Assembly (NCBI GenBank): GCA_965235115.1
Contig: OZ249436.1
Span: 26,848,001 to 26,912,000 of the forward strand
Origin: Laetmonice hystrix
Taxonomy: Eukaryota
Length of the DNA: 64,000 nucleotides
Direction: 5' to 3'
Below, in pieces: positions 1,683-58,300 of this stretch; the first letter of the stretch is position 1, and every line of letters begins with the position of its first letter. Position numbers and translations under genes: made by a program. The notes under the pieces were generated by a model. It worked only from the letters and a program-made list of their open reading frames with translations, made no database searches and had not been told where the DNA came from.

Positions 1683-3722
1683 CGGACTACATGACTGGGG
1701 CGGGGTGTGGGTGGGACTACATAACTGGGAGTGTGGGTTAGTGGGGTGTGGGTGGGACTACATGACTGGGGGTGTGGGTTAGTGGGGTGTGGGTGGGACT
1801 ACATGACTGGGGGCGGGGGTTAGTGGGGTGTGGGTGGGACTACATGACTGGGGGTGGGGGTTAGTGGGGTGTGGGTGGGGCTACATGACTGGGGGTGGGG
1901 GTTAGTGGGGTGTGGGTGGGACTAGGCCTACATGACTGGGGGCGGGGGTTAGTGGGGTGTGGGTGGGACTACATGACTGGGGGTGGGGGTTAGTGGGGTG
2001 TGGGTGGGACTACATGACTGGGGGTGGGGGTTAGTGGGGTGTGGGTGGGACTACATGACTGGGGGTGGGGGTTAGTGGGGTGTGGGTGGGACTACATGAC
2101 TGGGGGTGGGGGTCAGTGGGATGTGGGTGGGACTACATGACTGGTGGTAGGGGTTAGTGGGGTGTGGGTGGGGCTACATGACTGGGGCTTGGGTGTGGGT
2201 GGGACTACATGACTGGGGGTGAGGTGTGGGTGGGACTACATGACTGGGGGTGGGGGTTAGTGGGGTGTGGGTGGGACTACATGACTGGTGGTAGGGGTTA
2301 GTGGGGTGTGAGTGGGACTACATGACTGGTGGTAGGGGTTAGTGGGGTGTGAGTGCGACTACATGACTGGGGGTGGGGGTTAGTGGGGTGTGGGTGGGAC
2401 TACATGACTGGGGGTGGGGGTTAGTGGGGTGTGGGTGGGACTACATGACTGGGGGTGGGGGTTAGTGGGGTGTGGGTGGGACTACATGACTGGGGGTGGG
2501 GGTCAGTGGGATGTGGGTGGGACTACATGACTGGGGGTGGGGGTTAGTGGGGTGTGGGTGGGACTACATGACTGGGGGTGGGGGTCAGTGGGATGTGGGT
2601 GGGACTACATGACTGGGGGTAGGGGTTAGTGGGGTGTGAGTGGGACTACATGACTGGGGGTGGGGGTTAGTGGGGTGTGGGTGCGACTACATGACTGGGG
2701 GTGGGGGTCAGTGGGATGTGGGTGGGACTACATGACTGGGGGTAGGGGTTAGTGGGGTGTGGGTGGGACTACATGACTGGGGGTGGGGGTTAGTGGGATG
2801 TGGGTGGGACTACATGACTGGGGGTGGGGGTTAGTGGGGTGTGGGTGGGACTACATGACTGAGGGTGTGGGGTGGTAGGGGGTGTGGGTGGGACTACATG
2901 ACTGGCGGTGTGGGTTAGTGGGGTGTGGGTGGGGCTACATGACTGGGGCTTGGGTGTGGGTGGGACTACATGACTGGGGGTGAGGTGTGGGTGGGACTAC
3001 ATGACTGGTGGTAGGGGTTAGTGGGATGTGAGTGCGACTACATGACTGGGGGTGGGGGTTAGTGGGGTGTGGGTGGGACTACATGACTGGTGGTAGGGGT
3101 TAGTGGGGTGTGAGTGGGACTACATGACTGGTGGTAGGGGTTAGTGGGGTGTGGGTGGGACTACATGACTGGGGGCGGGGGTTAGTGGGGTGTGGGTGGG
3201 ACTACATGACTGGTGGTAGGGGTTAGTGGGTGTGGGTGGGGCTACATGACTGGGGGTGGGGGTTAGTGGGATGTGGGTGGGACTACATGACTGGGGGCGG
3301 GGGTTAGTTGGATGTGGGTGGGACTACATGACTCGGGGTGGGGGTTAGTGGGGTGTGGGTGGGACTACATGACTGGTGGTAGGGGTTAGTGGGATGTGGG
3401 TGGGACTACATGACTGGGGGTGGGGGTTAGTGGGGTGTGGGTTGTACTACATGACTGGGGTGAGGGTTAGTGGGGTGTGGGTGGTACTACATGACTGGTG
3501 GTAGGGGTTAGTGGGGTGTGAGTGGGACTACATGACTGGTGGTAGGGGTTAGTGGGGTGTGAGTGGGACTACATGACTGGTGGTAGGGGTTAGTGGGGTT
3601 TGGGTGGGACTACATGACTGGGGGTGGGGGTCAGTGGGGTGTGGGTGGGGCTACATGACTGGGGGTAGGGGTTAGTGGGGTGTGCATGGGACTACATGAC
3701 TGGGGGTGGGGGTTAGTGGGGT
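1683..3722 (+). repeat. G-rich minisatellite, 41-bp unit, ~50 copies
   Basis: Consensus GGGACTACATGACTGGGGGTGGGGGTTAGTGGGGTGTGGGT read directly. A pair of shortened variant units recurs at ~2171 and ~2932. Confidence 0.97.
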
Positions 3723-4475
3723 TGTGCTGCAAGGTGTGGGTGTGGGGTGTGGATGGGTGTCCTGCAGGGTGTGGGGTGTGGGGTGTGGATGGGTGTCCTG
3801 CAGGGTGTGGGGTGTGGGTATGGGGTGTGGGTGGGGTGTGGGGTGTGGGTGGGGGTCCTGCAAGGTGTGGGGTGTGGTAATGGGATGTGGGTGGGTGTCC
3901 TGCAGGGTGTGGGGTGGGGTGGGGTGGGGATGGGGGTCCTGCAAGGTGTGGGGTGTGGGTGGGTGTCCTGCAGGGTGTGGGGTGGTGTCCTGCAGGGTGT
4001 GGGGTGTGGGTGTGGGGTGTGGGGTGTGGGTGTGGGTGTGGGGTGTGGGTGGGGTCCTCCAGGGTGTGGGGTGTGGGTGGGGGTGGGGGTCCTGCAAGGT
4101 GTGGGGTGTGGGTGTGGGGTGTGGATGTGGGTCCTGCAGGGTGTGGGGTGTGGGTGTGGGTGTGGGTCCTGCAAGGTGTGGGGTGTGGGTGTGGGGTGTA
4201 GGTGGGTGTCCTGCAGGGTGTGGGGTGTGGGTGTGGGTGTGGGTCCTGCAAGGAGTGGGGTGTGTGGGTGTGGGGTGTGGGTGGGTGTCCTGCAGGGGGT
4301 GGGGTGGGGTGGGGATGGGGGTCCTGCAAGGTGTGGGGTGTGGGTGTGGGGTGTGGGTGGGTGTCCCGCAGGGTGTGGGGTGGGGTGGGGATGGGGGTGT
4401 GGGGTGTGGGTGGGTGTCCTGCAGGGTGTGAAGTGTAGGTGGGGCTATGGGTGGGTGTCCTGCAAGGTGTAGGGT
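3723..4475 (+). repeat. Second G-rich minisatellite: GTCCTGCA(G/A)GG core with variable (TGTGGG)n spacers
   Basis: About 20 recurrences of GTCCTGCA(G/A)GGTGTGGGG separated by GT-rich tracts of variable length. Confidence 0.93.
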
Positions 4476-4751
4476 GTTACTGTGATGCTTAAAGCCCATG
4501 TCAACACTAACACTACCTGGAGACCAAAAACCTCTATTGGGAGCCTCTCAAGACATTCCGGGTGTTCTAAGTCCTCCCTGACCCTCCCCCGCGTGGCAAT
4601 TAGCTTATCTGTAACCCGAGATCCAGTCAAGTCCCCTCACGCTCCCGCCAAGACCGTGACGTCATTTGTAGAACACACTGGTAGCACTGAGTGCTGTAGT
4701 CTATGCAGAGCTATACCAACACCATCATAGACGTATGCCAATACTCTCAAA

Positions 4752-4844: not shown

Positions 4845-5319
4845 GTAGCTTTTGAGAAACACAGTGTCGTGTACTACGGTAGTCAGGGTGACCCGGGCGC
4901 AGCGTGTGGGGAGGGGAGGCCATGCAAGCCGGGGTGGTGGGCAGCGGGCCGGGCAGGGAGCCGAGAAAGTGAGGGTGGTCCACCCTGGCAACATCTCACC
5001 CTATTTCCTCAGATGCTACTTTGTTTGGGTCGGCACTTTCTGCCTGCCAAGTTTCAGAAACCCCTCCAACTTAGATCTTTCTGAAATTGTGTATGGCAAT
5101 AGCGATGTTTGATGTTAAGGGTGGGGTGACGCGGAAAAGGTTAAATCTGCTTCGATGATATAAGTACAAATGTATATTGTGGGTACATTTCTGATAGGCC
5201 TACATGGCTTTCTCACTGCCCCCCCCCCCCCCCCCCGCCTATAGTTCAGTCCATAAGCATGGTTTTTGTACATAAGAATACTCAGAAAAGTATCCGACTG
5301 CTTTGATACTTAGGTCTAC

Positions 5320-5700
5320 TCATGAGGAGGAATCTGTGGATTATCATATTCTTGCTTGTATGCAGAGCCTGAGGAGCCAACCCCAAGCCCATATCGACAT
5401 ATTATAGGCCTAGGCCTACCTATATCAAGGCACGCAGACTTGAACAGCTGATGGTAACTCTGGGTCCTGAACACTGTCTGTGTCTGCATCAGCAGCAGCA
5501 GCAGACCCGTCACTGTAGGCACTACAACCCTACAACTGCCCCCTTCTTCACGCTCTGCAACAGGCTCATACAATGTAGGCCTGTGGTCCTTGGTAGGCAG
5601 AACAGCATTCACCACCTTCCACATCATCATCTGCCTCCTCAGACATAGATCACTGACCATTATATCCAAAACTTTGGTCGGATTCATCATGAGAATCAGT
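5320..5700 (-). pseudogene. Degenerate KolX / P2X7 ballast-like (ZCD) coding remnant
   Basis: The minus strand gives, with stops and frameshifts, an acidic N-terminal stretch (SEEADDDVE), a GPQAY/YEP motif, HQLFKSACLD and AYKQEYDNPQIPPHE ending at a GT. These resemble the PYxYEP, HPGFxxVCL and AYRQxY...PxHE motifs of invertebrate P2X7-ballast-like proteins. The Cys-rich core and last exon are missing. Confidence 0.6.
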
Positions 5701-6689
5701 TGAAGAACACACAGGGATATGCTATGCTGGCCGAGCGGGGTGCAGAACTGAGTTCTAAAAATGACGTCGCGCAGCCGGGTGACACAGATTCCAAGCGCGG
5801 TCGGGGCAGGGGGCAAATTGGTACTTTCTGATACCTGTCACACAGCGTGAGATAAGCTCTGGGGTTCGAGACTTGTTTACTTGGTCACTCTGTGGTTGAC
5901 TTCAAATGGGGAACAGAGTATTTCCCAAAAATTGTTACTGTTGACATGGACTTTAACGAGTAACGTGGTGACTAACGTAATTATTATAAGGATTAATGTG
6001 ATGCTTAACGAGTAACGTGAGGATTATTGTGAAGATGGCGATGAAGATCGTGATGTCAAATGTACTGATATTTCATCATTTCTGTACTGTAGTTAACTTT
6101 CTGTTATTCAATAATCAGTACGTTGTAACCCACAAATTTGTCCTAGAAATCCCGTTTTTCGACCTTGAATTTGACCTTTGACTTTGACCGAGCCTCTCAC
6201 AATATCCCAGTTGTGGGCCATTTGTGGCCTTGACCTTGACATTTGACCTTGACTTTAACGTCGAATCACAAGACGTATGCCACAATTGGATTGCCTGCCT
6301 CTATATTGTAAGGAAACACTCCATTAAATGTGATTTTAGGCGAACTGTCCTGGAAACCCCAGTTTTTTGGCCATTTTTGGCCTTGACCTTGATATTTGAC
6401 CTTGACATTGACCTTGAATCACAAAACAAATGGATTCCCCGTGTTGATATTGTATGGAAAAGTGCTATTACATATGATTCTAGGCCAAATGGTTTTCAAG
6501 TTACCTGAGCTTTGACGATTTGTTATTGATTATGCTGCTTTATGCAAATTAGCTTATAAAAAAAATTCCTCAACAGCCAACTTCGGCCAACAAAGCTGAA
6601 AATCTTCACAGAGCCTATGTGGACACAAATCAATCATAATCTCTTGCGGGTCTAAAAATTTCCGGGTTACCTGTGTTTACTTTCTGGTA

Positions 6690-10600: not shown

Positions 10601-11846
10601 CATCTCCGAATCAGTCCCCAAACATTATACTATTTTTCTGTTTTCATTGACTTTTTATGACTGTATTGTTAAACCCTTAAGTGGATAATGAAATTGTTCT
10701 CAAAATCAATTTGTGCATAATTAATTATCAATAAGTTCATTTATCATTGCTTATCATTGCATATTCTTATGCCTCCCCCCCCCCTTTTTTTTTTTGCTGG
10801 TGGCCTAAAAAAGTCAAAGGCTCCTAGAAAATTAGGCCTATCTCGATCTAGGGGAAAAGGTAAAACACACTTGGGTCCCCCCCCCCCGCCCCCACCACCA
10901 CCATCACCACCACAAGTAGACAGCGGCGCCCCTACCGAGGCCCCATCCGTGATTCTCATGCCAGAGTTTGTAGAGTACAACTTGACCCCTAAATCTTCTA
11001 CTCCAACTCACCGCACGGATCTGTGTTCTTCCACGTGTCCCGTTATTCCAGCGTCTACTCGTATCTATATCCATCCGCCGACAACATGTCGCCCACCAAC
11101 TAGAGCTCATTTCCTCGCGGAAGGTTGTACGTCGGCAACCGCCGCACCGCTAATTGGATTCTTCTAGGCAAACATCTTGTCTGGCGAAGCAGCAAGACAG
11201 CTTGCAGTTTTGTTATGTTTAAAACAATGTTTGGGAAATCGGGACTAATTTCCTTGTGCTATTGAATGACGGGAATCGTTTTAGTTACCTCGGAGACTTG
11301 GTTCACCGAAAGCGCGCGTGTATACCTTAGGTTGTGGCCACATTGCCGCTGGTCTCTGAATACTCGTTACTGAGTTCTACGTTTTAAATTGAAACTGGTA
11401 TTTCTAACATGACCAATTGCGTATAATTATTTATCCAGGGCCGTAATTGCATCAAAACCTTCTAGGCAGCAGACCGAAGTTACGAGAGGCACTTTACTTG
11501 TGAATAAAAGCATCTTCTATCAACCTACTTGTCAAAAATGACAGAAATTATCGGATAGCAATTGTTCCCATCCCCGTTAGGTGCGGCCCTGGACTATCAT
11601 GTCTGTTATAAGGCCTAATATTCTAGGCCAGTTTTCATTGCGAGTATTTTTATGTGTGTACATTACCTTGTAAATTTGAATTTAAAGGTTTGAATCCACT
11701 CTGCACATTATTAGAACCCATGATTGTTTTTCATACCTGATTGTAACAAATAGGTTTCAATCAAAGTCAGCAACAATTTCAAAGTTGCAAGAAAATCGCA
11801 TGAAAAGTCGATAGGTGACCTCAGGTCAATATTTTTATTACTTATA

Positions 11847-12459
11847 CAGTGGCGGATCCAGGGGGTGCATGGGTGCGCACCCCCTCTGAATTTTCAATAA
11901 TAGTTATTCTCTGTTCTCACATGCCAGGCTTTTGCTTTTTTGAAGAGGGGGCAAAAAATATTGATAGGCTAGGCCTAAATGCTTTAAGAAACTTCACAAT
12001 TTCTATCTCCAGATGCCGGGAAATAGCGTTGTTTAGCCTTCTAAACAAAAAAATGCCCCCCGCATGTTACTGGTAGGTTATCCCTAGATGCGAAACGTGA
12101 CAATTTCTATCCTGATGCCAGGAAATACCGTCTTTTTGCCTTCTAAATTCAAAACTTTCCTGGGGGAGGACCCACCACCTCGTGCGCATGTTATTGGTAG
12201 GCCTAGACGCTTTGAGAAACTTCACAATTTCTATCTCCAGATGCCGGGAAATAGCGTGTTTTTTGACCTTCTAAATTCAGACATTTCTGGGGGTAGACCT
12301 CCAGACCACCCGCACATGTTCGCCTCGCGCCTTCTGTCCACGAGCCCCCCCCCCCCCCCCCCCCCGCCTTTCGTGCAGTGCTGGATCTGTGTCTGCTGTA
12401 TAGACCTACAGTTGGCCAAACTATGGATGCCCCCCTTGAACTTCCTGGATCCGCCCCTG
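11847..12459. mobile_element. Non-autonomous DNA element with CAGTGGCGGATCCAGG-type TIRs (hAT-like CAG...CTG ends) and ~110-120 bp internal repeats
   Basis: CAGTGGCGGATCCAGG at 11847 pairs with CCTGGATCCGCCCCTG ending at 12459. ACAATTTCTATC...GATGCC(G/A)GGAAATA recurs at ~11996, ~12100 and ~12224. No matching 8-bp TSD. Confidence 0.65.
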
Positions 12460-25800: not shown

Positions 25801-28507
25801 CTCATTCAGTTTATCCCTGCCCTGTCCGTGAGAAGATTTTCTCAATGGTTGAGAACCCCCCGAAGCAAGGCCTCCATGTTGACGTGTTGAGAAGCCAGTC
25901 TACCGTGTCGACCATAGAGACACCCGAGGAAGGTTGGAGGTGTCGGGGTTGGTGTGCCAAGTCGGTTTGCTATCCCTCCATCGTGCCCGCAGGCTCAATG
26001 TTATTATCTGGTCTTAGGGCAGCTGACTGACAGCACTAACCAGGCGTTCTGGCTTGCCCAGGTCTGCCCCAGGTGCAGGTCAATATGTCACAAATCCAGG
26101 TAAAGCCCGTCCGGCACACCTGCCTCGGCGATGAGCGCTCATCCCAAGCAGTGTTTACGTACAACCCTGCCACGCTGACAAGATAATTACCGGCTTAGAA
26201 ACGGGAGACCCCGTCATTTACATCTACATGTCGCATTTCATCTGAAAGTATGTTGGTAAGGGTGGGGTGGGGGGCACGGGGGGTGATACGGGGCGGGGTG
26301 TTTTATCTGTCACCAGAGGAGGTTGGGGTGGGCCGCTCACGGGTAATCCAAGAGACAAGGAGGGAGTGAGGATGTGGGTGACAGTTGCCATTTATGTGGA
26401 TAAGCCGACACGGATATCGGCTACAATGCTTACCATTCATTTCTCTATTGTATTGTCAAAGCTCCGATGCTTATCTCTTCACCCAAAACACGCCCTTAAT
26501 AAGCGATGACAAATAAGTCCCGGGATAACGTCTCTCCCCCGCCCCAAAAGTTTGCGTTTTCAATACGGACTTTTCCTTATAGAAATAAGGCGTCCCGTGG
26601 TTGTGATATTATGTGATGTCGTTTACGGCCTGTCACGATTCCAGACGCCACACGATAGTTATACGAACCGCACTGTGTATGGATTAGTAACTCGGTAAGA
26701 TAAATGCGTTCTCCATCTGAGCAGTGAATGGCGTTTTTATCAGATCGCTGAGAGACATGGAGGTATCGAGTGTGACACACAGGTATGTGGTGTAATAGTT
26801 CTTGGTCATGAAGTGTCACCCCCAAACGCTGGGGACTGGCGCGGTTAAGTAATAATGTAAACTATAGGAACGGGACATGAGAAGAAAAATTATACGGCGC
26901 TTTTGTGGACCGCTCTCTTTGGGGTCGTTATGGACATATTATATACTAGTACATCTAAGATTCCTATATATGAGGTTCAGAGAAACGTTGCTGACCCGGA
27001 ATATAATGTTTTTGACACTCGCGTGTCATCGTTAAGTGTGTGTATGGCTCCCATTCGCTGTGTAAAGACATTCGTGAAGTGATAACCTTGCCAATACACG
27101 AAACAAGGCAAACATCTTGGAATACTACCTACAAAGTTTTCTCCTGACCTCCAGGTCATTAAGATCCCAGAGATCGACCCTTCAAGTATACTTGTGGTCC
27201 TAAAATAACACGCAATTTGTCACGATCTGAATGCCGCTAAAATAGCTGTGGTCCCGCGACCCCCCACCCCTACACCCTCCCACACCGCACCAGCCGTAAC
27301 TATATATACAGTTTGGTGTGAAGACTAGGTGTTCAGCCTTGTGTCTGGGGGAGCTGGTAACGGTAGGTATATATATACTGAGAGGTTATAGGTCTCGGTG
27401 GGTTGATGCCCAAGTCAGCAGGCGGGGGGCTTGGCCAGGCCGATCCGAGCCAAACGCTAATTGATGTTGGGCACGCTCGTCATACAAAGACAGCTTGAAC
27501 TGAGAGCAAACGTTAGGCGCCGGGTCAGGAGAAGGTGGCGGCGTCTCCGTACTCCGTCACCCCATCCTACTACCTCTAGCACTGGTTCGGCAAACGATAC
27601 ACAGGTGGCGCTATACTCGTTTCTAACTGTTCCTATGACGTCCGTATGACGTATATTTGCTATATTACTCAGGGTTGCCCTGCAGTGAAGATCAAAATGA
27701 CGTTTGAAGAATAAGTAATTCCCATTCTCCGGTGTCTTTAAAGTGTAGGCCTACATACTGAAAGCAGACAGGGTCTAAGGTTGCATACCTGTCAGAGTTT
27801 TAGAGGGGGAATTATGCGCTATACAGAAAGATATACACCACCAGTCATATAGATGCACTATAAGCCTTCATGCATACCTCTTCATATACCATACGACACA
27901 TAATATATAAACATAGATAAGTATAAATCACATATCTATACATTCCCCAGCACCCATATGTATCAATATGCCCATTATAAATACATAATAAATAATGTAC
28001 ACGAATACGTATGCCTACACAGTATCGGGTCCAGGGGGCTCCTGGGGGCCCTGATCCATGTGTGACACACAACATGGGGTGGAGATCACAGTGTGCAGTC
28101 ACCAGCACAGTTCTAACAACGACAGAGGTTGTGGTTGTGGTGATGTTTGGGACCGGGCACCTACAGGATCCACGGATCAAAAGGTCACGTTTGTGGCCAG
28201 CTGGGTCAAACAAGAAGGTTGCGTGTTCCGTATAATTACCGCTACTATACATATAGTACTTATACAGGTGTACTTGCCCAAGTACCTACATTATACCTGT
28301 TTCCCTGGAGGTGTCCATCCATCAACTGCTTTCCCAGGCATCTGTTCATCAAGTACACACGTCTGATATGTAAGTGCATTTGTTGTTTTCAGTGTCATTG
28401 AAGGGACTTCTATCTGAGTAAAACTTGGGTCCGTGAGGTACCTTTACACGTTAAGTTAAGTGTAGGCCTAGGTGCAATGTCCAACGACATGTTACATAGA
28501 GACCAAT

Positions 28508-34001: not shown

Positions 34002-34182
34002 GTTAGTTCATTTCTACATTATTTGACATAATTAACGGTAACTCAGAGCGAGGTTAAAATCATTTTGCCAGGATTGTTACAGGGCTGCAACAAGGCCAGA
34101 CCTTAGCTATTACAGAGGTGATTATGATATCACCTTATGATATTTATGTAGGCCTACCGGGTACCATAAATATTATCGACCC

Positions 34183-35036: not shown

Positions 35037-35641
35037 TTTGCGATTACCAATTACTCTTGCCACTGGTGTCCACTTTTTCCAAGTGTTCCATATTACTATA
35101 CAGATTCAGACCAAATTACCGCAGGCTGTTTTACTGTAACTCTCGAAGGAAGTTCTTAAAGGCTTTTTTTCAGGGTTACACAGTTTTGCATGTTAATTGG
35201 CATCTTAAAATTATATAGGCCTACATGTATATAAGTAGGCCTACATTACCTTGACTACGTCAGCAAACTACGAGTATACCTTCTGTTTTTACACCTAAGA
35301 TTTTCTCCACACCGACAGTTGTAATTCTCTATGTTCAATGTGAAGGGTCGTTGACAATAAAGCTCATGTTCAAAATATAGTACCACTTGACTTCCTGACT
35401 TTATTCTGTCAATAAACGTCATGTTCAGACAGCGTCACCTGACAAAGTACTTCGCCATCGAAAATGTCCCTGTGTGTCATGAAAAAGTGTGTCAAGACTA
35501 AATCTCAGGTCCAGAGATTTCATGTTTCCAGACAAAAAGGACGTTGGCTCAGTAGGTCATGCTTAGAAATTGTAGTATAGGCTTAATCACACTTTTTCCT
35601 GTCAAAGTAGGCCTACTTTGGTATTAAAAACCGTATTGATA

Positions 35642-38104: not shown

Positions 38105-38170
38105 GGTAGGTAGGTAGGTAGGTAGGTAGGTAGGTAGGTAGGTAGGTAGGTAGGTATAGTAGGTAGGTAG
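38105..38170 (+). repeat. (TAGG)n microsatellite
   Basis: Direct reading. Confidence 0.95.
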
Positions 38171-39373
38171 CTATACATAGATACATGTACATGTATGTGC
38201 ATATCATTATTAGTGTGCATGTACAATGTATGTATCTACACTAGAGAACTTGAGGGAGGGGACATTGGGCCATGCCCCCGGGATGCCAATGATGGTCAAA
38301 GATATCGGTATTATGCCACAGTTAGAGTTCATCCCCGTCCTTCGGAAATATTGCTCCGACCCCCCCCCCCCCTCCCCCGCCCCCTTTCATGTGATCGATT
38401 TTGTAACTACGTCACTGCACATCCGTTTGTGCATGTATGCTGTATAGGCCTATACGAATATATATGTATTGTTGTAAGTATAGGAAGGGAAGAAGTCATA
38501 GCTGCAATTAAAATTATGCATGGATGTATACAGCAACTTTCGGTTGTAGTAGATGAACTGTTTGACAATAGGCCTACACCCACATGTATCACACACCAAC
38601 ATACACCACACACGTCATATCTGCAACTCTCTATAAGTTACCATCGTTGTCAGTCCAGGTGTTGGACCATTTTAATCTACGCACGCATGTATCCATTCAT
38701 ACCTGATAGTACGAGGTGTAATTATTCAATATAACACATGGTTTCATAATAACCATATAATAGAGCGGTAAATACGGTATAATAACGATAAGTACACCAT
38801 AACTTTTGCTTGTTACGCAGTTACTATACCAGGTATAGCAAACATGTATACCCACAGACACATAATGATTTGTTAAGAGCGATAAGTGAGTTTCCATTTA
38901 TGCTCACATTTTGATAGCATAATATAATGAGGATGACATTAATAGTATCACTGTCTGAATAATCTTGATGAAGCGTCACGTATCTATCTAAACTGATATT
39001 GGCAGCTATTATTATGATATACTGAGAAAGGATACATATTATGTCGAATTCAGAATTCCAACTTGACTTTTTTTGTACTGGGATGTTTTTGGTCTCTCAT
39101 TGTAATGACACCTGTTGTATTGCCTAAATGTAATAAATGCATTTATTAACCTCTGGGATTACTTAGACACGATTGTGCACCGTTATCGTGCTGGACAGGG
39201 TTGTTATACGTTTGGCCACTGAGTTTATACACTCTATATTAATGTTTTTTTTTAAATGTGATCGCTGATCTTTTTTGGTGTGTGAGTAGCAGGAACGAGT
39301 CGTACAAAAATATAACATGCAGACATTGAGATACTGTTATATAATGTATACATCCTGGCAAGCAAACTTTCCG

Positions 39374-39508
39374 TCTCTCTGTGTATCTCCCTCTCTGTAT
39401 CTCCCCCTCTCCGTCTCCCTCTCTCTCTCTCTCTTCTCTCTCCTCTCTCGCTGTCTCTCTCTCGCTCGCTCTCTCCCCTCTCTTCTCGCTCTCTCTTCTC
39501 TCTCTCGC
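39374..39508 (+). repeat. Degenerate (CT)n tract
   Basis: Direct reading. Confidence 0.9.
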
Positions 39509-40548: not shown

Positions 40549-40599
40549 GCAGACGACATTCAATGTTAGCAGACGACATTCAATGTTAGCAGACGACAT
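40549..40599 (+). repeat. 20-bp tandem duplication, 2.5 copies
   Basis: GCAGACGACATTCAATGTTA repeated perfectly. Confidence 0.9.
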
Positions 40600-40914
40600 C
40601 CGGCGTGAAACCCGCGCTCAATGCGAGTTTGCTTTTCTCAGTCACAGCACATTGAACCTAGAAGAGAAACAAACGTGTCAGCAGACTGGAGCTCACAAAC
40701 AGGATCTGCGTGCCCTGATCAAGCCGTGCCAATCTACAAAAAGAATCGCCATTATAATTTTTCTTTCTTTCACAGGGGGAAAGCACCCGCAATCCTGCAA
40801 CGAGTCACGTATCTACTGAAAACCTGCAGGTTGAGACTCTCGCGGTGAACCCACTGCATGGATGGATATCCCCGCTTCGCTTGACGAGCTGTCGGCTCGT
40901 GAATATTACAGCCC

Positions 40915-41095
40915 GGCCGACCAATCAGCGGCAAGCTCGGGATATCGGGACAAAAGAGGGGCGTGGTAAGCTGTTTGCGCCGTGTGAGTACACTCCTCTC
41001 ATAATATTTGACAACACCGACAACACGCGCATATGGTCAGGTGCGAGGCGTGGGTGAACATCAGCGGTACGCCGCGCTCACATTTATATCCTACC
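40915..41095 (+). promoter_or_regulatory. Candidate proximal promoter of foxQ2
   Basis: GACCAATCAG (CCAAT box, ~40919), GGGGCGTGG (Sp/KLF box, ~40958) and a weak TTTATAT (~41083), lying 350-500 bp upstream of the ATG. Confidence 0.35.
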
Positions 41096-41432
41096 CACAG
41101 ACACAGATTGTGTGATCACCCTCGCTTCACTCGTACTGCATGCATGCATGCATGCTGCAGCCAACCACCCTTCATCACAACGTCGCGAGATCCTGTCTAC
41201 ATACACGCAGAGGGCAAGTTGAGGTTTAAGAAAATAGACTCTCATGCAGTACTTCTGATGCTGATTTACTGCGAAGTTTCTACTTTATAACAACGGTACT
41301 ACCACGGGGCAGTACAACCTCAGATACTGCTCCACAAAGACAGAGAGAGATATCATCGCTCTCTCTCTCAGGTTAAAAGAAAAAAACATCGGAACTCCAG
41401 AGACTTTGAGTTGGCCGATTGCAACCCACACC

Positions 41433-43187: not shown

Positions 43188-46100
43188 TTAATTGACTTTT
43201 AGTAATATTACATCCACGTTACATCCTAGCTCTCCCTCAGTAGTGTGAAGGACAACGATCCAAGGTCAGCCGTGTGAAGGATCTACATGCCTCGTCAGGC
43301 ATGCAGAGGTCTCCTTCCCATTGACACTCCTGAACAGTGAACATGCAAGTCCGTACATCATCTCCAGAATCTGACTGACAAACCTCACATTTTGTGAGTG
43401 CGGTGATCAATGTCTCAACAATAATTTTATTATAACAATGTGATGGACATACAGTATAAAGAAAGACTTGAATACCATCTGGTGCTCTCTTCCCTGACTT
43501 AGCGCGGACGAACGCCATAGATTCTTATATAAATATGGGAACTCTACAATATACCACGCTGTTCATAAATAGCTGAGGACTTCATGCAGATACTCCTTTA
43601 TAAACTTTCTTCGCATTGAATGTAACTTTTCTCGAGATGTATATGATATAAAGTGACAACGCGTCTGAATGAGTATAGGACCGCCTCGCGTTCAAATATA
43701 AGGTGAGAACTACACAACCTTTCTCAATATTGTAGTGTACTTAGATATACTGCGTCTAGTTTCTATATATATATACCATCATTTTAGCTCTTAAAATTAC
43801 TTGTGGTTGTACAAAATTTGACACACACAATATTATTGTTATGCTGCGTGCACACACGCGTGTGTGTTTAGATTTACTGGACTTAACGTTTTTGGTAGGA
43901 TATAGCAGATGGAATGATAAATAATTAATTCGATCGCATTCTGACTACTGTTTGCAGCCATGCAGTGTCAAAAAGAGTCTCTATACAGGCTTATAATATC
44001 GGTCTATATAATATAGTCAGCAGAAGTTCTGGACATAGTCTCATCAACCCACCTTTGACATCATGATTTTGTACATAATGGCATACATCATTTTTATTAT
44101 AGTATATTGCCACAACCTGCATAATAGCATATCTTGGGAGTATACATGTCTATACATATAAAAGACAGATGTGCATTTTGCATATACAGCGTGTATATAA
44201 TTATTATATACTGCATTGGTGTACGTGACACAAGGTCGTTTGAAACTATTGTACATAACGGAATATAATGTCTCATCTTATAGAGTTTGCATGCATGAGT
44301 GGCCAAGAATTATATTGGTGTTATTGCTGGCGTTATTTCGTACATGTATTTATGTTACGTGATCAGTTATAACTGGCATATACACGTGCAAATAGCACAG
44401 AAAGACAATGTTGCCGTTTACTGACAATCAACGAATGTTATACTTTTCGTATGATATACATACGATGCTATACATGGATTTTGCATTAAACACAAAATGA
44501 AGCCCCATGAATTTATGAATGTGTCATCTTTTTTCCACCATCCTTATCTGATTACGACGAGTGGACATGTAACGTCCAGTAAATTTATTCATTAAAACAC
44601 TTTTATTCGCGTAAATCGTGTATTTTTGACCGTTTCTCTGTTTTAATATTTTTTGTAAATGTAAATTCAAACATCCTCTCATACATTTAATACACTGTTT
44701 ATGCAATTTTTTTTTAAATGCACGAGTATAGCCTATAGCTAACCTATTAATATATAGATCACGTCATACGCGGTGTCTTAAAGAGGGTAGGCTTACATAC
44801 GTTAGCCGGTTTGCATGGAGCAACAGCAGACCGTTGGCCACCGACAGATGTTAAATATAATCGAGTTATATACGAATTTATTTCTATTCGATTCCCATTC
44901 TAAATGAGCCCAACAATTCTATCCGCGGTATAGCGTTACCATTATAGCAATATCATACCCATTTCTTTCATGTATCAATATCCTGTTGCAAAGGAAACTG
45001 TTTTCTTTATAACATTTTAACTCTGCACAATAGCATGCCATTTGACCGCATGTCGGCAATAATATACGCGAGTGGATGTGGCGCACGATGACAACAACGG
45101 CCCAGTCTCTTTGTCTTGCGTGTTGGATAATTGCGTGGTGACCACTGCGGTGTTGGTGGTCTGGGTCGACCAACACGTCCGACGGCTGATGTCGGGAGGG
45201 GTGGAGGGTACCGGGCCGATACGTCCGGAGGCCCGGGGTGAGTACAACGCCGTGACCCGCCTCGACCACCGCCCCTTCCTGACACCTTTATATGCCAGGC
45301 TCGACCACGGCCTCTATAGATACAGGCGTGTTTCTTAACCAAGCAATAGGTGTTCATTATACGCATTGATTTAACCCCGATTTTATCTCACGGGATTACG
45401 GAACTCACTTCCGTAACTTATATAGGGCCAGGGTTCATCTTCTCACGGTCTATAGAGGGAGGGTCATTTGGACGCGGGAACTGGCCATGATTATATAGTG
45501 TAAAAATTTAAGAAGACGTCATGATTTCTTATCGAGTTCTATATAGGTTTTCACATCAGCCTTATCTTCCACGGATTATTCTTCATCACCATACACGTCC
45601 ATAGTTTTCGCAGTTCCTTAACAATTATTTGTAACCTAGGCCTATAATGTACAAAAAAGAGAACCATATATATAAAACGATAAATCCACGGCATCTGTTG
45701 TGAATGTGAAATCGACAAGACATGCTATAATATATTATGTGCACCTGCATATAGGAATGTATCTATACTGTGCAGTGGGTGTATGTTAATTTATGAGATA
45801 AAGAGAAAGAACAAAAGTTACATATATATATAGGCCTACGCCTACTGTTATATAAAGAAGGTCTATATGTCATGCGCTATACACGTAAACATTTTACATA
45901 TACATGGGTGGTGTGGTTTTTAACCTTCTCATTATCGAGGTGTTGTATATTTTTCGATATACCATTACCGTTATAACATGCAGTTGTTATAACATTATGA
46001 AATAATACTCTTTTTTTATTTGCCAATACAACAATGGCCTTATCACATAATAAATATTTCATCTTAATTGATGTAAATAAATATACAGTACCAACTTTAA

Positions 46101-47252
46101 TTCGCTTAGCAATAAATATTATGAAAACTATAATATTATATAGTACACATTGACAGACACAAAGACCATGACGATATGTCAATCACACATGGACATTCAC
46201 AGCGATCGTTTCCCACGTCCATGTGGACTTCATTACCACCAATGTCACTGGCTGCCGACAGTTTGCCTGCTATGGTGTGGGGTAAAACTGTAAAAGGCCA
46301 CGTCAAACCTGGTATCTTTTCCTTGGCTGCAGCTCTCTGCATGAGGCATTCTATCTGTGAGACAAAGAGAAGTAAACGGTCGATGGAAACAGGGGGACCT
46401 GACAGAAATAGTCGATACACTTTGAGAAATAAAATGTATATTATGCGAGGGAAAGGGGGCGGCGGAGATGGCGTTAGCAGATGAAAGGATATCTGTGTAA
46501 CCGATTCTCCTAGTGTGAGAATAAACTGAACGGGTAGATGAAGACAGCCTCAGGCATGCCGACCTTCTACTCGCGCTGGTCACAGAGGCAATGAGGCAAC
46601 CCGAGTCGTTGCAATTATCACTAACACAATGGCCGTATGAGCAAACTTCCCCGAGGCCATTGTCTTAGCTTCCCATGTGTTCACCAACACGGCATAAATA
46701 ATCGAATTGTCCTGTAACAATAAAAGATCGGCGCAGCAATCAGCACCTATTTATTCCCATTATTGGCTCTAATGTGTCCAGTGGGTGGGTGGCAGGGCCA
46801 TAGATTATCAAGGCAGCGTTGTCGGGCACCAACCACTCCGTCCCCCCCCCCCCCCCCCAACGCGACACATACGGCAGACTGCACAGTTTGCGTCCTAATA
46901 TGCTACATAATTAGATTAGAAATTGGCCATGTGTTTTTTGTCACAGCTCAAACGATGTTTGTGGTGGCCCTATATACATACATGTATATGAGCTATGGGT
47001 GTAGATTATATTATAGTACATCGGTGGATATACATCTTATATTCCATTTGGCATTATCCTATTTGTGTATACTCCTCATGCATTCTACATCTTGAGGTGG
47101 GGTGTATTTTTACATCGAATTTTAACATTTTGAATAGTATAACCATTTCATAAAGAGCCACACTTTCAATGTTTTTTCTTGCTGTATAGTTAACACTTCA
47201 CATTCCTCAATATACTGATATAATATACGTATACCTAAACCTCCATAATAAT

Positions 47253-47795
47253 ATATTATACACCTGGCCCAGCTAAGCAATCTGATTGGTCCATTTGTAC
47301 CACGTGACCGTCCCGAAAATTTTGATATTGGACGGTAAAATACGATATTGGACGGTTCGCTCTGGAAACCATAGAGACGAAGATGATACGATGGATAAGA
47401 TAAGATGAATTTAACTATAGTAACTAGTTAATGGGGTTTTAATGTGTCCAATTGTCACATTGACCATGGAACCTTACAGAAAATATGTTCATTAAAGTTT
47501 ACATTTTCATATTACAGCAATGACCCTGGTCGATGTGTTGGTTCTTGTAGGCCTAATCCAAGCTGATACCTAAGCAGGTCTTCTCGACTTTATTTATATG
47601 GGATTATCAATATTTTACTTATATAGGCCTATAGGTGTATAATATAGCAAGTGTTGGATGGCAGCTCGTCCACTATACAGTTTACGGGACTCTGAAAAGC
47701 GATAATGGACTCGGCTTCGCCTCGTCCATTATCGCCTTTTCTTCGTCCCGTAAACTGTATAGTGGACTCGCCGCCATCCAATATTTGTATAATAT
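47253..47795 (+). mobile_element. Non-autonomous element with a long 3' hairpin (Crypton-like architecture)
   Basis: A ~57-bp stem spans 47654-47781 around the loop TCGGCTTCGCCTC. The 5' end ATATTATACACCT (47253) is inverted at 47633-47645. TGTATAATAT is repeated directly at 47786-47795. CTGATTGG lies near the 5' end. The family is assigned from recalled resemblance only. Confidence 0.6.
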
Positions 47796-48460
47796 GCCAA
47801 TACATGCACATGCATAAGACATACATTAAATTACATCAGACGAAGGACAGTTTTCATAAATTATATTTATATTAAACCTAATAGTATATCATAGAAGGGA
47901 TATTCATTGATGGGTATTTATTTCTACAATGCTGAGGTACATGTTCATCTTTCGATACAAGAATCACGCATCCATTTACTATATATTACATACCATGCAC
48001 ATGCAGTATACGTCGGGTTGTATAGACATAATGACGCACGTGTTCCAAAACACATGCGATATTTATTCACACCCTATATTCTTAGATTAAATTGTTTGTG
48101 TTTTGGGGGTATTTTTTAAAACTATAACAGAGATACATTAAAATCATTTTACAAGTAATTAATGTTCACGTTTGTCGTTGGATACTGTTATAGTATACAT
48201 TATAGAACATCTGGGGCGCTAATATAGGTTTCCCGTCAAAGTGTGTACGTTGCTATGTTTTGTTCAGTTGATCTCGTATCAATGGACAAGCCCTGTTTGT
48301 AGGTCAGGGACAGGAATTTAGCACCGATTTCACGACGTAAACAACAACATTAACTGGGGTAAATTATTATTAAAAATATAGCAAGGAACAAACTATAACC
48401 CAAACAAAACAACATTCCTTCCGTGAAACAACGATCCTCCTTGTAGTGTCGGTTGGTTAA

Positions 48461-48983: not shown

Positions 48984-49049
<66 letters not shown>

Positions 49050-50930: not shown

Positions 50931-53900
50931 TTCCGCTGCTGCCGCCCCCAATCGCCGCCCCTCCCGTCTCGCGTCCCCACGGACTGTGCCTTCCCTACTC
51001 CGACGTGCCGCTGGGCCCCCTCGGGTCCCTGCCCGCCCCATCCCCGTCTCTCCCAACCTAAATATTGTGATCGTTTTATTCAACCAACATTCAGCGTCAT
51101 CGAAGCATTTGAACTGACTCCAAAGAACACACATCATTCTATACCTAGATGTCCGCTTAATTTGTTCCCTTATCGTTATCGCATTGTATCGGATACTTTG
51201 GTCGCTATACCTGCCCTCTCACGTCTGAAAGCCAGCCGGGCAGTGAATTGGACAAACATATGTTCTACTCTGTCGGTGGTGTGGTCCGTTTTCTGCCTCC
51301 GGGGTAAATTCGCGCCCTGTGGTCTCGAAGGGTGGAGCACCTCGTACTCACGCTGAACATGAGAGGTAATTTATACTGCTGCAGCCTCTGTAAGCACACG
51401 CCCCCTAGACTTAACCTACCGTTAAACCTGCTGGACATTTCTATCGGGATTTCACCAACGTTCATTAACAAGTAACTCGATAGCGGTTTCGGCGAGGGTT
51501 ATTGCGCGGTGTGTGGAGGACTGGGGTGGCTCAGGACGGGTGGGGTTTGCGGCGGCGGGGGAGGGGGTATTTTCGGATATTCCCTTCAGCAGGAAACGGT
51601 CGTCGTGAGGCAGGTGATTGGGTGCCGGGGAGGAGGTGGTCGGTGTCGGGTGTCCAGGCCCGTGGGTCCCGGCGACAAGCCGATTGCTGGGTCTCTTCTC
51701 ACCTCGGCTAGCAACACGATCCACAGAAACGGCGGCTTAACCGCATTATAATCCGAAAGATATTTCCTTAAGTTGCATGTTACAGTGACATCCCATTTCG
51801 TTTGAATGGTGTAACGGCAGAGGGGCAGCTGGGGTTGGGTATTTTAAACCCACGGTGCCCAGTCGGCTGGTTCCCACGCTTTCCTATATAAAGGCCTATA
51901 TTATATATACGTATATATTATCAAAGCACGCATATATAAATGAAGGGCCATGTAATATATTAGCAAATATTATGTCATGCAGCACTTACAGTATTAACAG
52001 GGTTTCAAGCAGAATGCAGTAGGCCTATCCAGGTATAGGTCCCATCTCTGCCGTATATACCTACTTTGTTATAACTCCGCCGGCTATATATGCATGAAAA
52101 ATAACATACATACAAGCTCCTTCTTGTTTTACTCCCCCTTCTTTACATTAATTGTGTTAAAATTGATGATTTAACAATATGTTGAGGCATCAAATAAAAG
52201 GGATAGGCGAAAGATAAAACACCAGTATGGATTAAGATTGAGGGAAGGCGTTGAGGCCGTGGTAGCAATGAACGCGGCAATATTTCCTCTCTGAGGGAAG
52301 AAAATTGCCGACTTTGTCATTATGATTTCATATACACACAGCAATTTGCCCGCCAGCCCGGCGTACTTACGGTGATTAGAAACGGCGCTTGTATCCGACT
52401 CCCACAAACAAAGCCATTTTTCATTGATAAACCGAATCCCTTGACACCAAACATGGCGATAATTAATGGTACCGATCTCTGCGGTTACTCCACTAAACTC
52501 ATATGTTTGCTAAGAGCGCCTCATTTTTAGTGGTATTAAAAATTGCTGGCTGAGCTTGTGCCTCCGGTGCTTATACAAACACGGGTGCAGGAATTCATAT
52601 ATGATATATATACATAGTATGATATATTCAAACAAAAGTTATCATATTATAGTATAATACTTTTTTCATTTATTTATGTTATGTTTCTCATAATGACAGT
52701 GATGTGAAATTATTACAGTCCTTTCATTTCCACGACTCTGTACCTCTGTAATCTTCTTGCTACACGTATAATATAGGCCTATATGTAATACTGTTGATGG
52801 TGTTTTGTGCAAATAACCAAATGTGTTGGCGCCCAGTGATATCAGTCTTTTTATGTTTCCTTTAGTTGCCAGCAAACACGCAAGGCCAGACAAGTAGGCT
52901 TTCCAAACATTTATATCTGGAATAATAGAGGCGGCGACAACGCCATTGGTTGCGATGCGCCCTGTGGTCGAAAGGGGGGAAGGGCAGACAGAACAGAAGT
53001 ACAACTGTTCGATTGGGGCAATTTTCACCCATCCCATCTGTCAGTGTAGTTCACAGTGTGCTAGAAAATAATCCCGAAATGGTCTCTACATGACAATAGG
53101 CATTCTGCTTGAGTTCGCCACCCACCGAACCACACCAGCCCGCTCCGTAGCGGGTCCATCGTTAAAAGTCGAGCCGCCTGTCATTGAAGACTTTCACGGG
53201 GCCGCCTGGCTGAAACAGTTTTCAATGTGGTGGGTTTTTAATGGAGAGATTAAAAATGGGCTGGCTGCGCGATGACACACTGCGAGGGCCAATTTGGACG
53301 CGACGTGCGCCAAACGCAGCAGCAGACGACTGCAAGCGTAGCGCGTTCACGTCTGTTCAAGGACGTCGACGGCGGCGCGTTCAGACACGTTATCTGTCGT
53401 CTGCTCATTGATTTTTCACGTGGTGCTAGAAACGTCGCTACGTTTGTGTATGGAGAGTGGCGTAATGGGGGCCGGCATGTGTCGGTGCGGGAGGGGGTAC
53501 CTGAAATAGCTGACTCGGATCCAACGTGGCTATGGTCTCTCCACAAGAAGTTTAGGTCTAGAGTCCCATAGAAACATACATTTTAAATTAGGGCGAAGTC
53601 GGAGTCCTCGAATCTCAATGAGCATGTTTGGCACAAACATGGTGTGCTTTTCTGTAAGCCGGCTGTGAAACGTTGTTACTGAGAAAGCAATAACAATGGT
53701 GATCACAGCAGCAGACTGCTTCTCATACTATATAAGTCTACCCCTTAATTTCCTTTGTATATCGCAACAGCTTAGATCACGAATGGTACATGAGGCCTCT
53801 TGCATGAATAAGCAAAGGTTATATAGATCTATACATCATAGTGATTTATAGTTCCCCCGAGGAGTTGAGAAATAAACATTGCTTGCATGTCTAAAACATT

Positions 53901-55328: not shown

Positions 55329-55395
55329 AACGATTTATGTGTTACTTCTCGTTTCGAATAAACGATTTATGTGTTACTTCTCGTTTCGAATAAAC
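55329..55395 (+). repeat. Perfect 32-bp tandem duplication
   Basis: AACGATTTATGTGTTACTTCTCGTTTCGAATA twice. Confidence 0.9.
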
Positions 55396-58300
55396 TGTAT
55401 GTAAAATTTGTAGTTAGAGAAAAAAAAGTCTGGTGAATGAATACGGTATGGTGGGAGGTGTGCGAAACATCATATACACGTAGTCCTTATAGTGCATGAC
55501 TGTCATCTTTCTAAAGCCAACTTGTCCATGTATAATGTCTATCAGGATTCCGTGGAATCAGGGACAGTAGCATGTCTTTAGCAAGAGATATAACATGACG
55601 AAATGTATGTGTAATGTGTTATTCGCATGTTGTTCAGCGTTGTTAGATGTTCTGGAGACACATTGTCCAGAAAAATAGGTACATGGACCATGTATATAGG
55701 CGTATCGGCAGCTTTAAGTATCAAAGCAGAATCCGTTTTATATAATATTCAGAACAATTCTATTCTAAAATTAGTATACCCTATGTATTATTATAGGCCT
55801 ACAATAAGTAGGCCTATTGTAGCCCTCTCCAACCCTCCCCGGACCCCTACCTTCAAGAGTTCCCACCGGCCGCCAGGTGAGTTGAACTCAGATGAGGTGG
55901 GGGTAAGACCACTCCACCCCACCCCTCCGACACACACACCTGTGGGCTCACCGATTCCTTATTCCAGACAAGTTCCTGCTGGCGGTCGTTGCATGCCATC
56001 GATCTGCCATGAGACCCGCCGGTACATAACGCCGACACCCGCCGGAGATGATCACCATGTCCCCCGGCCCGGACCGGGCCCCTGCCCGGCCCCCGCCCGG
56101 CCCCTCCCCGTCTCGATCCCCGGGCCACGTACAGCCCGCACAACCCGACCACGCCGCTAGCAATTACGAGAAGAATATGAAGACGAACGACAATGGCACT
56201 GATGGTAATCGCCGACCAGCAGGCACCGCCAGTCCCCATGTGGGTCGTCCGATTTAGACTACTCCAAGGCAGGATCGAATACAGTTCATGGATTCGTTTA
56301 ACCAAATTGCCGTCACTATTCTTTAGCCACGCGGCGCGCCACAAAATGAGGCGGGCCCGTTAAATGAACGCTAGCGGCGTACCCGCCAGCTTCTTACAAC
56401 GTGCCCCGGGTAGCGTTCGTGCATGGACCGCACGTTTAAAGGAAAGATTAACATTTCAACGTATTCTCGTAATGAGCTCCATTCACAAATTTCCGTAGGC
56501 AGCTCGTTCGTTTTCCCCTCTTCATTCTTCTTATCTGACACGGGCCGGGGACATGCTCGGAGGAATTAAGGCTATAGAAGCACACACCCTGAATATAAAA
56601 AAAATAATTGTGCCCCTCGGGTGATAATGTAAGATTTGATCATAATGTGTGACGGCATGGTGGGCTGTGGGACAGTGGAGTTAATGTGACCACACGGAGG
56701 CTAATGGTCACATGGCAACAGGTCACACTCTGTTCACAGGCAACTCCTCCTGGCTGTGCACATGCACGCCGGCCAATGTTAACATTATAGGATAACGTAA
56801 TTGTTCAGTTGATATTGATTGGTTACTGTTTATCCCGATCCCGACACAAGTCCGCAGACTTATACATGGAGGTGTGTTCTCTCTCGCTCATCTATATACA
56901 GACATATCTTTAAATTGTTTATATAATTATGGATTATGAAAGTAACTTTAGGTTCGCTTTGATTTGTATGTTGGTATAGCGTTTTTGACAGTGCAGACCG
57001 GATCAATTTGTTATGGCTTATATTCGGTACCTAAGACCATCTGTTGTATATACCCTTGTAGAGATACAAGAGAATCGATCGAACAAAGACCATGTCACAT
57101 ATATGACATGTGTTGATTGTATTTAAAACTTATAGGTTTAAAACTTAGGTGATCAATGCATATTTTTGTGGTCTGTATACTCTATACATATACATAGTAC
57201 TATTTGAGAAATCTTTGTATTACTGTGTCTGGTTGTGGTTGTGCATCAATATGCGGGAGCGACTTTACACAGTGACTTAGTCATGATTGAGGTTCATGAT
57301 ACACATTTGAGAAAAAAGATGAAAGCCAAATGAACAAATCGTCCACATCATGCGACGACTTCCAGAATAACGTCAAATAAAACAAAGAAATCTATGGTAA
57401 ACTTTATGTATCCATACAATCATGGGACTGGGAAAGAGAGTATGATCATGAGGGAACTCATGAATACCTTATGTTTCACAAAACGAACCACATCAGCCTG
57501 GACATAAAAAAACAACCTTTCAATAATCGTTGTAGCTCAATGTTATATAATGGGCAAATGTATACACAAAGGAAAGCTTTTTAACCCCGATTATCAAAGG
57601 TATTTTACAATCGGCAGGGGAATGTAAATATATAACGTGCACATTATTTCCTCCATATACCAATGCAGATTTCCAGCTGTTTCATCCGGCCCCGCCGCCC
57701 CTCAATATAGCAAAGTTTTCGGTGTAAAAGCCCACCGTCCCAATTACTTGTTGCACACAGGACTCTGTGGCATCTGATAGACATGTCGGTGGTCCGCGTT
57801 ATTGGGAAGATTTGTGCCCTGTTTGAAAACCCTTTGCAAGCAAGGACAACTAGTTTGAAAATAGGAGCACAAAATAATCCACACACAGCGGAGGTGGCGT
57901 GAATGGGCTTGATATTCGTGCGCGACGGGGCGCTTGTCCCATTGTATGGGGGCCGTTTAAAAGGGGAGGGTGAGAAAGGTCCCTAGGAGGGGCCCCCACC
58001 CGCTGGGCCCGGACCGACAGAGGTGGGCCCCCGGTACCGGTCACTGTACCTCAATACCGAGTGTGCGTGCGCAGAATGTGCGCGCATGGAACCCGTCTTT
58101 TGGAGGCGTTCCACTGGCCTGTCAATCACCCCCCCCCCCCCGGTCTCCCTCTCACCTCTCTCTGTCTCTCCCTCTCCTCCCATCCTGTATATCTTCCCAC
58201 ACGGGACGCCCGACTCATTCCGTTTTCAATGGCCGACCCTCCTCACGATTCACAGCTATTCCTTATTTTCAATGACATTTTCCGAAGCGGTGGGAACCGA

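What the first reader, a model, noticed from the sequence alone, without database searches (positions are those of the whole stretch)
1923..55816. TAGGCCTA is about 20-fold enriched and visibly arises by GGCCTA insertion at TA sites
Seen: about 24 hand-counted copies of the palindrome TAGGCCTA (1923, 5195, 5405, 5411, 9510, 10833, 11970, 12198, 27746, 28463, 34149, 35216, 35236, 35608, 38445, 38569, 45637, 45831, 47548, 47624, 52020, 52774, 55794, 55809). About 1 is expected for an 8-mer in 64 kb. Two copies fall in repeats whose ancestral state is readable. The satellite unit GGGACTA|CATGACT becomes GGGACTA-GGCCTA-CATGACT at 1923, and the motif CAAAGTA|CTTTGG becomes CAAAGTA-GGCCTA-CTTTGG at 35608. 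5405-5418 is a tandem double. None was seen in the foxQ2 CDS. Inference: a stereotyped TA -> TA-GGCC-TA event, either the excision footprint of a very active TA-targeting transposon with GG...CC ends or a templated repair signature, acts as a pervasive mutational process in this genome.
Basis: partly seen in the sequence, partly recalled or inferred. Interest (0 to 1): 0.75.

Follow-up and report, generated by a model that had tools for sequence, protein, structure and literature searches.

The report
Transposon exit scars at TA sites
The eight-letter word TAGGCCTA is at least 25 times too common in this invertebrate's DNA and, where sister copies allow a check, arose by six letters being added at a plain TA, most likely as the scar left by a cut-and-paste jumping gene that was itself not found.

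Summary
All 24 copies are at the stated coordinates; about 0.5-1 are expected. Insertion at TA is shown at 1923 (1 of 49 satellite units) and at 47624, where contigs of other repeat copies lack the 6 letters. It is likely at 35608. The pair 11970/12198 is one duplicated site, and absence from foxQ2 is uninformative (0.34 expected). Sites prefer R-TA-Y and cluster. Animal-type metagenome contigs show the same word, empty/filled pairs, and two sister words, TAGGCTA and TAGGGCCTA. These are the 3-, 2- and 1-base overlaps of two GGC overhangs. Best reading: excision footprints of a TA-targeting, Tc1/mariner-like element with GGC ends. No such element or transposase was found, and current activity is not shown (0 of 2 testable sites heterozygous). 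The chemistry is textbook; I found this word in no paper as a footprint. The scan already reported this motif in this genome (e1-7908793) and similar scars in other genomes.

The parts
1923..1930 (.). TAGGCCTA in one unit of the 41-bp satellite; clearest 6-bp insertion at TA
   Evidence: 1 of 49 units
1702..3722 (+). 41-bp satellite that shows the empty state; its unit holds no GGCC
5195..5202 (.). TAGGCCTA, ancestral state not readable
5405..5422 (.). tandem double TA-GGCC-TA-GGCC-TA followed by CC-TA; repeat hit or slippage
9510..9517 (.). TAGGCCTA
10833..10840 (.). TAGGCCTA
11965..11977 (.). compound TA-GGC-TA-GGCC-TA; paralogue of the 12198 site with 5 extra letters
12198..12205 (.). TAGGCCTA in a second copy of the same short repeat as 11970
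27746..27753 (.). TAGGCCTA
28463..28470 (.). TAGGCCTA
34149..34156 (.). TAGGCCTA
35216..35243 (.). two TAGGCCTA 20 bp apart, the first overlapping TACATGTA, in a high-copy repeat; state in other copies not resolved
35608..35615 (.). TAGGCCTA splitting the local palindrome CAAAGTACTTTG
   Evidence: four intact copies of the palindrome nearby
38445..38452 (.). TAGGCCTA, single-copy DNA; heterozygosity undecided
38569..38576 (.). TAGGCCTA, single-copy DNA; heterozygosity undecided
45637..45644 (.). TAGGCCTA, single-copy DNA; no 6-bp deletion possible in the three spanning contigs
   Evidence: table 8
45831..45844 (.). TAGGCCTA followed by CGCCTA, a double with one mismatch; not heterozygous in the contigs
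47548..47555 (.). TAGGCCTA in a 69-bp stretch that other copies of the repeat replace
   Evidence: tables 5 and 5c
47624..47631 (.). TAGGCCTA in a high-copy repeat; contigs of other copies lack 6 letters here
   Evidence: table 4: X1 depth 624.5 of 931.9, X2 101.5 of 1101.5, X3 0
52020..52027 (.). TAGGCCTA
52774..52781 (.). TAGGCCTA
55794..55816 (.). two TAGGCCTA 15 bp apart

Best explanation
TAGGCCTA here is a 6-letter insertion at TA, shown directly at two to three sites and likely at most others, and is most likely the excision footprint of a TA-targeting cut-and-paste transposon of Tc1/mariner-type chemistry whose ends are predicted to begin GGC. Inferred steps: the element inserts at TA, preferring R-TA-Y, and duplicates the TA. 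On excision it leaves a 3-base 3' overhang, GGC, on each flank. The last two bases, GC, pair perfectly with their partner, so end-joining gives TA-GGCC-TA as the main product. A 3-base overlap with a central mismatch gives TA-GGC-TA or TA-GCC-TA, and a 1-base overlap gives TA-GGGCC-TA or TA-GGCCC-TA. Scars outlast the element and have built up to about one per 2.7 kb (23 words for 3858 unmasked TA occurrences, about 0.6%).
For: Enrichment 23 vs 0.45-0.49. Empty and filled states at 1923, 47624 and 35608, and in L036 vs two copies in L016 and L014 vs L107. The insert is the same whatever the flanks, and GGCC is not nearby (3 of 24 vs 19%). Flank bias is symmetric: base after the word C21 T17 G7 A3 of 48 half-sites, chi-square p=1.7e-4, repeated in the outside loci (A 0.17 vs 0.30, C 0.36 vs 0.21). 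In 64 of 116 outside loci (225 kb) TAGGCTA is 79 vs 20.9 and TAGGGCCTA 14 vs 0.91, while TAGGTA (56 vs 67.6), TAGCTA (55 vs 53.7) and TAGGGCTA (1 vs 3.7) are not enriched, as overlaps of GGC predict. L025 vs L047 shows the 7-bp form as an indel. Tc1/mariner excision leaves 3' overhangs and footprints made of the first or last 2-4 element bases between two TAs (PMC6943129, passages). TACATGTA, recalled as the Tc1 footprint, is also enriched (10 vs 2.3).
Against: No TA-flanked element with GG ends in the window or in 372 kb of outside loci, and no transposase among 126 ORFs. No locus with full, empty and scar alleles was seen. In the window the sister words are not enriched (TAGGCTA 5 vs 2.9, TAGGGCCTA 0), so the GGC inference rests on pooled DNA of other, unnamed animals chosen for holding three copies of the word. 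TAGGCCCCTA (3 vs 0.26) is not a GGC overlap. The third copy of the 11970/12198 repeat is not an empty TA. TAGG or CCTA lies near 15 of 24 sites vs 38% of background. The insert made only 2 of 25 clean 6-bp indels in the outside set. No TA-duplicating family with GGC ends turned up in the passages and supplements searched.
Confidence: 0.7

Rival explanations
1. Still a transposon footprint, but of other geometry: either GG ends with 2-base overhangs joined end to end after fill-in, or an element with AGG ends that inserts between T and A without duplicating the target.
For: Both give exactly TAGGCCTA from TA, so the shown indels cannot tell them apart. TAGGCCCCTA (3 vs 0.26) fits G-run ends better than GGC. 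No-duplication elements exist (Spy; PMC4482050, passages).
Against: Independent trimming of GG ends should also enrich TAGCTA, TAGGTA and TAGGGCTA, and none is enriched. Spy targets AAATTT, not TA.
Confidence: 0.12
2. A break at TA is extended by a host enzyme that adds G without a template or from a telomere template (terminal transferase, polymerase theta or telomerase), and the two ends are then joined; no transposon is involved.
For: No source element was found. TAGG and CCTA resemble the telomere word TTAGGG (recalled).
Against: Telomerase priming would favour T before the TA, but that base is seen in 3 of 48 half-sites vs 27% background. The product is too uniform for untemplated addition. 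The route would need a nuclease leaving TA on both ends, and none is known to me.
Confidence: 0.08
3. The word is a functional binding site kept by selection, or part of a few dispersed repeat consensuses.
For: 11970 and 12198 are paralogous. 35216, 35236, 35608, 47548 and 47624 lie in high-copy repeats, and the first three were not listed as indels (39 rows hidden). Sites cluster: 8 gaps of 250 bp or less vs 2.3.
Against: Most sites have no flank match elsewhere in the window. One site sits in a satellite unit where the other 48 delimited units lack it. 38445, 38569, 45637 and 45831 are in single-copy DNA. Selection does not explain arrival as a whole 6-letter insert.
Confidence: 0.05
4. Local templated repair or slippage builds the palindrome from nearby sequence.
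For: TAGG or CCTA lies within 40 bp of 15 of 24 sites vs 38%. The doubles at 5405, 11965 and 45831 are what slippage on an existing copy would give.
Against: GGCC is near only 3 of 24 sites and absent from the satellite unit. Templating should vary with the flanks, yet one word dominates 136 TA-NNNN-TA words.
Confidence: 0.05

Closest known systems
Canonical excision footprints of Tc1/mariner elements, e.g. Sleeping Beauty TACAGTA/TACTGTA (PMC6943129 and PMC8151067, passages)
   Same: TA on both sides of a few fixed letters; read as element-end overhangs joined by end-joining repair.
   Different: Core is GGCC, not CAG/CTG; main product is a perfect palindrome; seen as a standing genome feature at one per 2.7 kb, not in a transposition assay; the element is unknown.
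Tc1/Tc3-type footprint TACATGTA (recalled; one search found no paper describing it as such)
   Same: 8-bp palindrome made by a 6-bp insertion at TA; also enriched here (10 vs 2.3).
   Different: CA...TG core instead of GG...CC; Tc1 elements are known, the GG(C)-ended source is not.
ISL2EU (PHIS superfamily; PMC4482050, passages)
   Same: 2-bp target duplication in AT-rich DNA.
   Different: Target is A|AT|T with AT duplicated; none of the 24 sites has AA before and TT after the word.
Zator (3-bp duplication per PMC10045372; GG...CC ends and TWA target recalled)
   Same: Related to the IS630/Tc1/mariner group (PMC7386202); GG ends would give a GGCC core.
   Different: A 3-bp duplication would give a 7-bp insert such as TAA-GGCC-TAA, whereas the readable sites show 6 bp at TA.

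Membership tests
IS630/Tc1/mariner excision footprint | TA target duplicated around a short insert | tested here: met
   TA to TA-GGCC-TA at 1923, 47624, L036/L016 and L014/L107; a no-duplication reading (T-AGGCCT-A) gives the same letters
IS630/Tc1/mariner excision footprint | Insert is fixed and independent of the flanks | tested here: met
   one word in unrelated flanks; GGCC near 3 of 24 sites vs 19%
IS630/Tc1/mariner excision footprint | Insert equals the first and last 2-4 bases of a real element | tested here: inconclusive
   no TA-flanked GG...CC element in 64 kb plus 372 kb; whole genome not held
IS630/Tc1/mariner excision footprint | A DDE transposase of this group in the genome | tested here: inconclusive
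   none among 26 window ORFs and 100 of 140 locus ORFs scanned in Pfam; far too little DNA to exclude one
IS630/Tc1/mariner excision footprint | Full, empty and footprint alleles at one locus | not testable with these tools
   only one sample is served, as contigs
IS630/Tc1/mariner excision footprint | Symmetric target preference around the TA (recalled for Tc1 and Sleeping Beauty) | tested here: met
   R-TA-Y bias, p=1.7e-4 in the window and the same direction in outside loci
ISL2EU footprint | AT duplication at an A|AT|T target | tested here: not met
   0 of 24 window sites read AATAGGCCTATT; 2 of 109 outside sites do, about what the flank frequencies give
Zator footprint | 3-bp target duplication | tested here: not met
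   readable indels are 6 bp at TA; two separate TAAGGCCTAA words exist at 11609 and 23991

The most novel reading that the evidence does not exclude
An uncatalogued, widespread family of TA-targeting transposons with GGC ends has hopped so often in several animal lineages that its scars, not its copies, are its main legacy. Because its overhangs are self-complementary, repair funnels into one palindrome, so short-word counts give a direct, datable record of past cut-and-paste activity and of end-joining choice in any genome.
Probability: 0.35. Interest if true: 0.65.

Novelty: new variant of a known kind. Interest (0 to 1): 0.42.

Why it matters
If right, excision scars are a steady source of small insertions (144 of 64,000 bases here, about 0.2%). 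They record transposon traffic that copy counts miss, because the element leaves. The scar series predicts the ends (GGC) and cut stagger (3 bases) of an element nobody has yet tied to it, which makes the search direct. It also warns that this 'enriched motif' should not be read as a transcription-factor site. The mechanism itself is established and the scan has met such scars in other genomes, which caps the surprise.

Tried and rejected
Whole genome: not held, so no genome-wide count. Source element: TA-flanked inverted-repeat scans of the window and of 116 outside loci gave none. Candidates were internal to longer repeats, telomere-like arrays or single weak pairs (L016 8627-9896, L020 1245-1404, L058 7046-7274), and a shared TTA-GGCCGCCC start in L014/L075 had no matching other end. 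Pfam scan of 126 ORFs: no transposase. Heterozygosity: one search hid 39 indel rows, so 35216, 35236, 35608, 38445 and 38569 stay open. ISL2EU, Zator and Sailor (TATA target, GT or CC ends; PMC8533490) do not fit. Telomerase addition is disfavoured by the flank bias. Literature: ten searches listed no paper treating TAGGCCTA as a footprint or an enriched genomic word; I saw only listings for these, and only 30 of 283 hits. Supplements: one search found 5 'GGC' word starts in the pogo tables, of which I saw 2 (one single-copy primate Tigger entry); one search found none. The FASTA supplements of PMC7325037 could not be read and may hold a GGC-ended element; Repbase was not available.
Full report
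Observation. TAGGCCTA occurs 24 times, at exactly the listed positions. Expectation from Markov orders 0-4 is 0.64-1.90. With ten tandem-repeat blocks masked and the word removed from the background it is 23 against 0.45-0.49, the strongest of 136 TA-NNNN-TA words. One-mismatch neighbours number 30 against 12.5-14.5, a modest halo of older copies, some of them inside repeats. No whole genome is held.

Does it arise by insertion? At 1923, 1 of 49 delimited satellite units carries GGCCTA after the TA, as a clean 6-bp gap. At 35608, removing six letters restores a 12-bp palindrome found four times nearby. I laid the three available runs, all contigs of one sample, on 35060-48440, which holds 9 of the 24 sites. 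At 47624, inside a high-copy repeat, one contig in X1 (depth 624.5 of 931.9) and one in X2 (101.5 of 1101.5) lack six letters. X3 shows other differences there, so the family is mixed at this spot. Against a simple picture: 11970 and 12198 are paralogues, and their third copy reads TAGG-TTATC-CCTA, not TA. The sites 35216, 35236 and 35608 lie in another high-copy repeat and were not among the 12 indel rows shown (39 hidden), so they may be inherited from that family. The absence from foxQ2 is uninformative (0.34 expected).

Is it active now? Not shown. Contigs spanning 43004-46077 carry other alleles but cannot hold a 6-bp deletion: X2 has 6 gap letters and is 2 shorter, X3 has 1 gap and X1 none. 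So 45637 and 45831 are not heterozygous as far as contigs tell. For 38445 and 38569, X3 excludes a deletion and X2 leaves it open (gap counts read as letters, my inference).

Site choice. Rebuilt empty sites are symmetric R-TA-Y: the base after the word is C21, T17, G7, A3 of 48 half-sites against 0.21, 0.36, 0.16, 0.27 (p=1.7e-4; half-sites not fully independent). Sites cluster: 8 gaps of 250 bp or less against 2.3 (p=0.0006) and 3 of 25 bp or less against 0.27; one of the eight is the paralogous pair. Compound sites at 5405, 11965 and 45831 could be repeat hits or slippage. GGCC lies within 40 bp of only 3 of 24 sites against 19% of background, so the core is not copied locally. The shorter words TAGG or CCTA are near 15 of 24 against 38%, which cuts the other way.

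Other DNA. A scan of metagenome contigs for three close copies returned 117 stretches from 3 of 64 parts of the collection; 116 loci were stored. Several carry animal-type domains (rhodopsin-type receptor, SOCS box, matrixin, SRCR). I kept 64 of 116: at least 1 kb, GC 0.36-0.50, two further loci and six TAGG-rich or tandem loci dropped, tandem repeats and 300 bp around the seed masked, 225,395 bases. There TAGGCCTA is 109 vs 2.55 (49 loci; biased by the selection), TAGGCTA/TAGCCTA 79 vs 20.9 (36 loci) and TAGGGCCTA/TAGGCCCTA 14 vs 0.91 (13 loci). TAGGTA, TAGCTA and TAGGGCTA are not enriched, TAGGGCCCTA and TAGGCGCCTA are absent, and TAGGCCCCTA is 3 vs 0.26 (a looser set of 70 loci gave the same pattern). 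The flank bias repeats. Aligned repeat copies give clean empty/filled pairs: L036 vs L016 and L014 vs L107 for the 6-bp form, L025 vs L047 for the 7-bp form (one search placed the last gap differently). The 6-bp form made 2 of 25 clean 6-bp indels and the 7-bp form 1 of 10, so it does not dominate that small set.

Mechanism. Tc1/mariner transposases cut a few bases inside the element, leave 3' overhangs, and end-joining then yields footprints made of the first or last 2-4 element bases between two TAs (PMC6943129 and PMC8151067, passages). The group duplicates TA (PMC10045372, passages). I infer two GGC overhangs. Overlap by two bases pairs GC with GC perfectly and gives TAGGCCTA; overlap by three gives TAGGCTA or TAGCCTA; overlap by one gives TAGGGCCTA or TAGGCCCTA. 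These are the three main enriched words, and the words expected from independent trimming of GG ends are not enriched. The inference rests on pooled DNA from other animals: in this window TAGGCTA is 5 vs 2.9 and the 9-mer is absent. Shown: enrichment, insertion at TA for a few sites, flank bias. Inferred: the transposon, its ends, the stagger and the repair route.

What was not found. No TA-flanked element with GG ends in the window or in 372 kb of loci, and no transposase in 126 ORFs, being 26 from the window and 100 of 140 listed from the loci. ISL2EU needs A|AT|T (PMC4482050, passages) and Sailor TATA (PMC8533490, passages); Zator duplicates 3 bp. Passages of PMC9179366, PMC10379824, bioRxiv 10.1101/656579, PMC7325037 and PMC7386202 and two supplement searches named no GGC-ended TA family. 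Unreadable FASTA supplements may bear on this.

Novelty. Ten searches (listings only) showed no paper on TAGGCCTA as a footprint or an enriched word; subscription journals and Repbase are not covered. The scan itself reported the same word and reading 21 Mb away in this genome (e1-7908793), a TA-GGC-TA scar in another animal (e1-7884265, seen after I had reached the GGC reading), and analogous words in urchin, placozoan and diatom DNA. These notes are unchecked and are not independent support; one gave me the lead to PMC6943129. Verdict: a real feature, a new variant of a known kind of scar, source element unknown. Interest 0.42.

Noticed in passing
window 47238-47791: A high-copy element of about 550 bp with a long internal palindrome (47639-47795) is missing from contigs of the other haplotype, which have 13 letters in its place. 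ATAATAT stands near both ends; this recalls Crypton-type elements (label from memory).
   Followed up: partly
window 1037-1047 vs 6461-6500: The two arms of a long inverted-repeat element (838-1201 and 6321-6667) differ by a 9-bp insert that reads TA-GAGAATC-TA, another TA-bounded insertion, resembling nearby sequence.
   Followed up: no
window 12476, 15159, 15247, 35222, 38182, 38188, 44341, 46979, 61768, 63940: TACATGTA, a second TA-bounded palindrome, occurs 10 times against 2.3 expected; probably a second scar class.
   Followed up: partly
window 11609-11618 and 23991-24000: Two TAAGGCCTAA words could be read as TAA-GGCC-TAA, the form a 3-bp-duplicating GG-ended element would leave.
   Followed up: no
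window 33145-37108: A 24-bp inverted repeat starting CGATCGG and flanked by TA on both sides brackets 4 kb that holds a high-copy element rich in CAAAGTAC motifs and a 50-bp satellite.
   Followed up: no
window 41430-43187: Single open frame for a forkhead protein; most named hits near the top are from ribbon worms, molluscs, annelids and hemichordates, some labelled FoxQ2.
   Followed up: partly
window 47621 (run X3 contig): One high-depth contig has GGCCC put in behind 47621, giving TA-GGCCC-TA, the 1-base-overlap form, though the alignment there may be forced.
   Followed up: no
64 outside loci pooled: TACCGGTA is also enriched, 10 vs 1.5 in 10 loci; it would be the matching product of CCG overhangs.
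   Followed up: no
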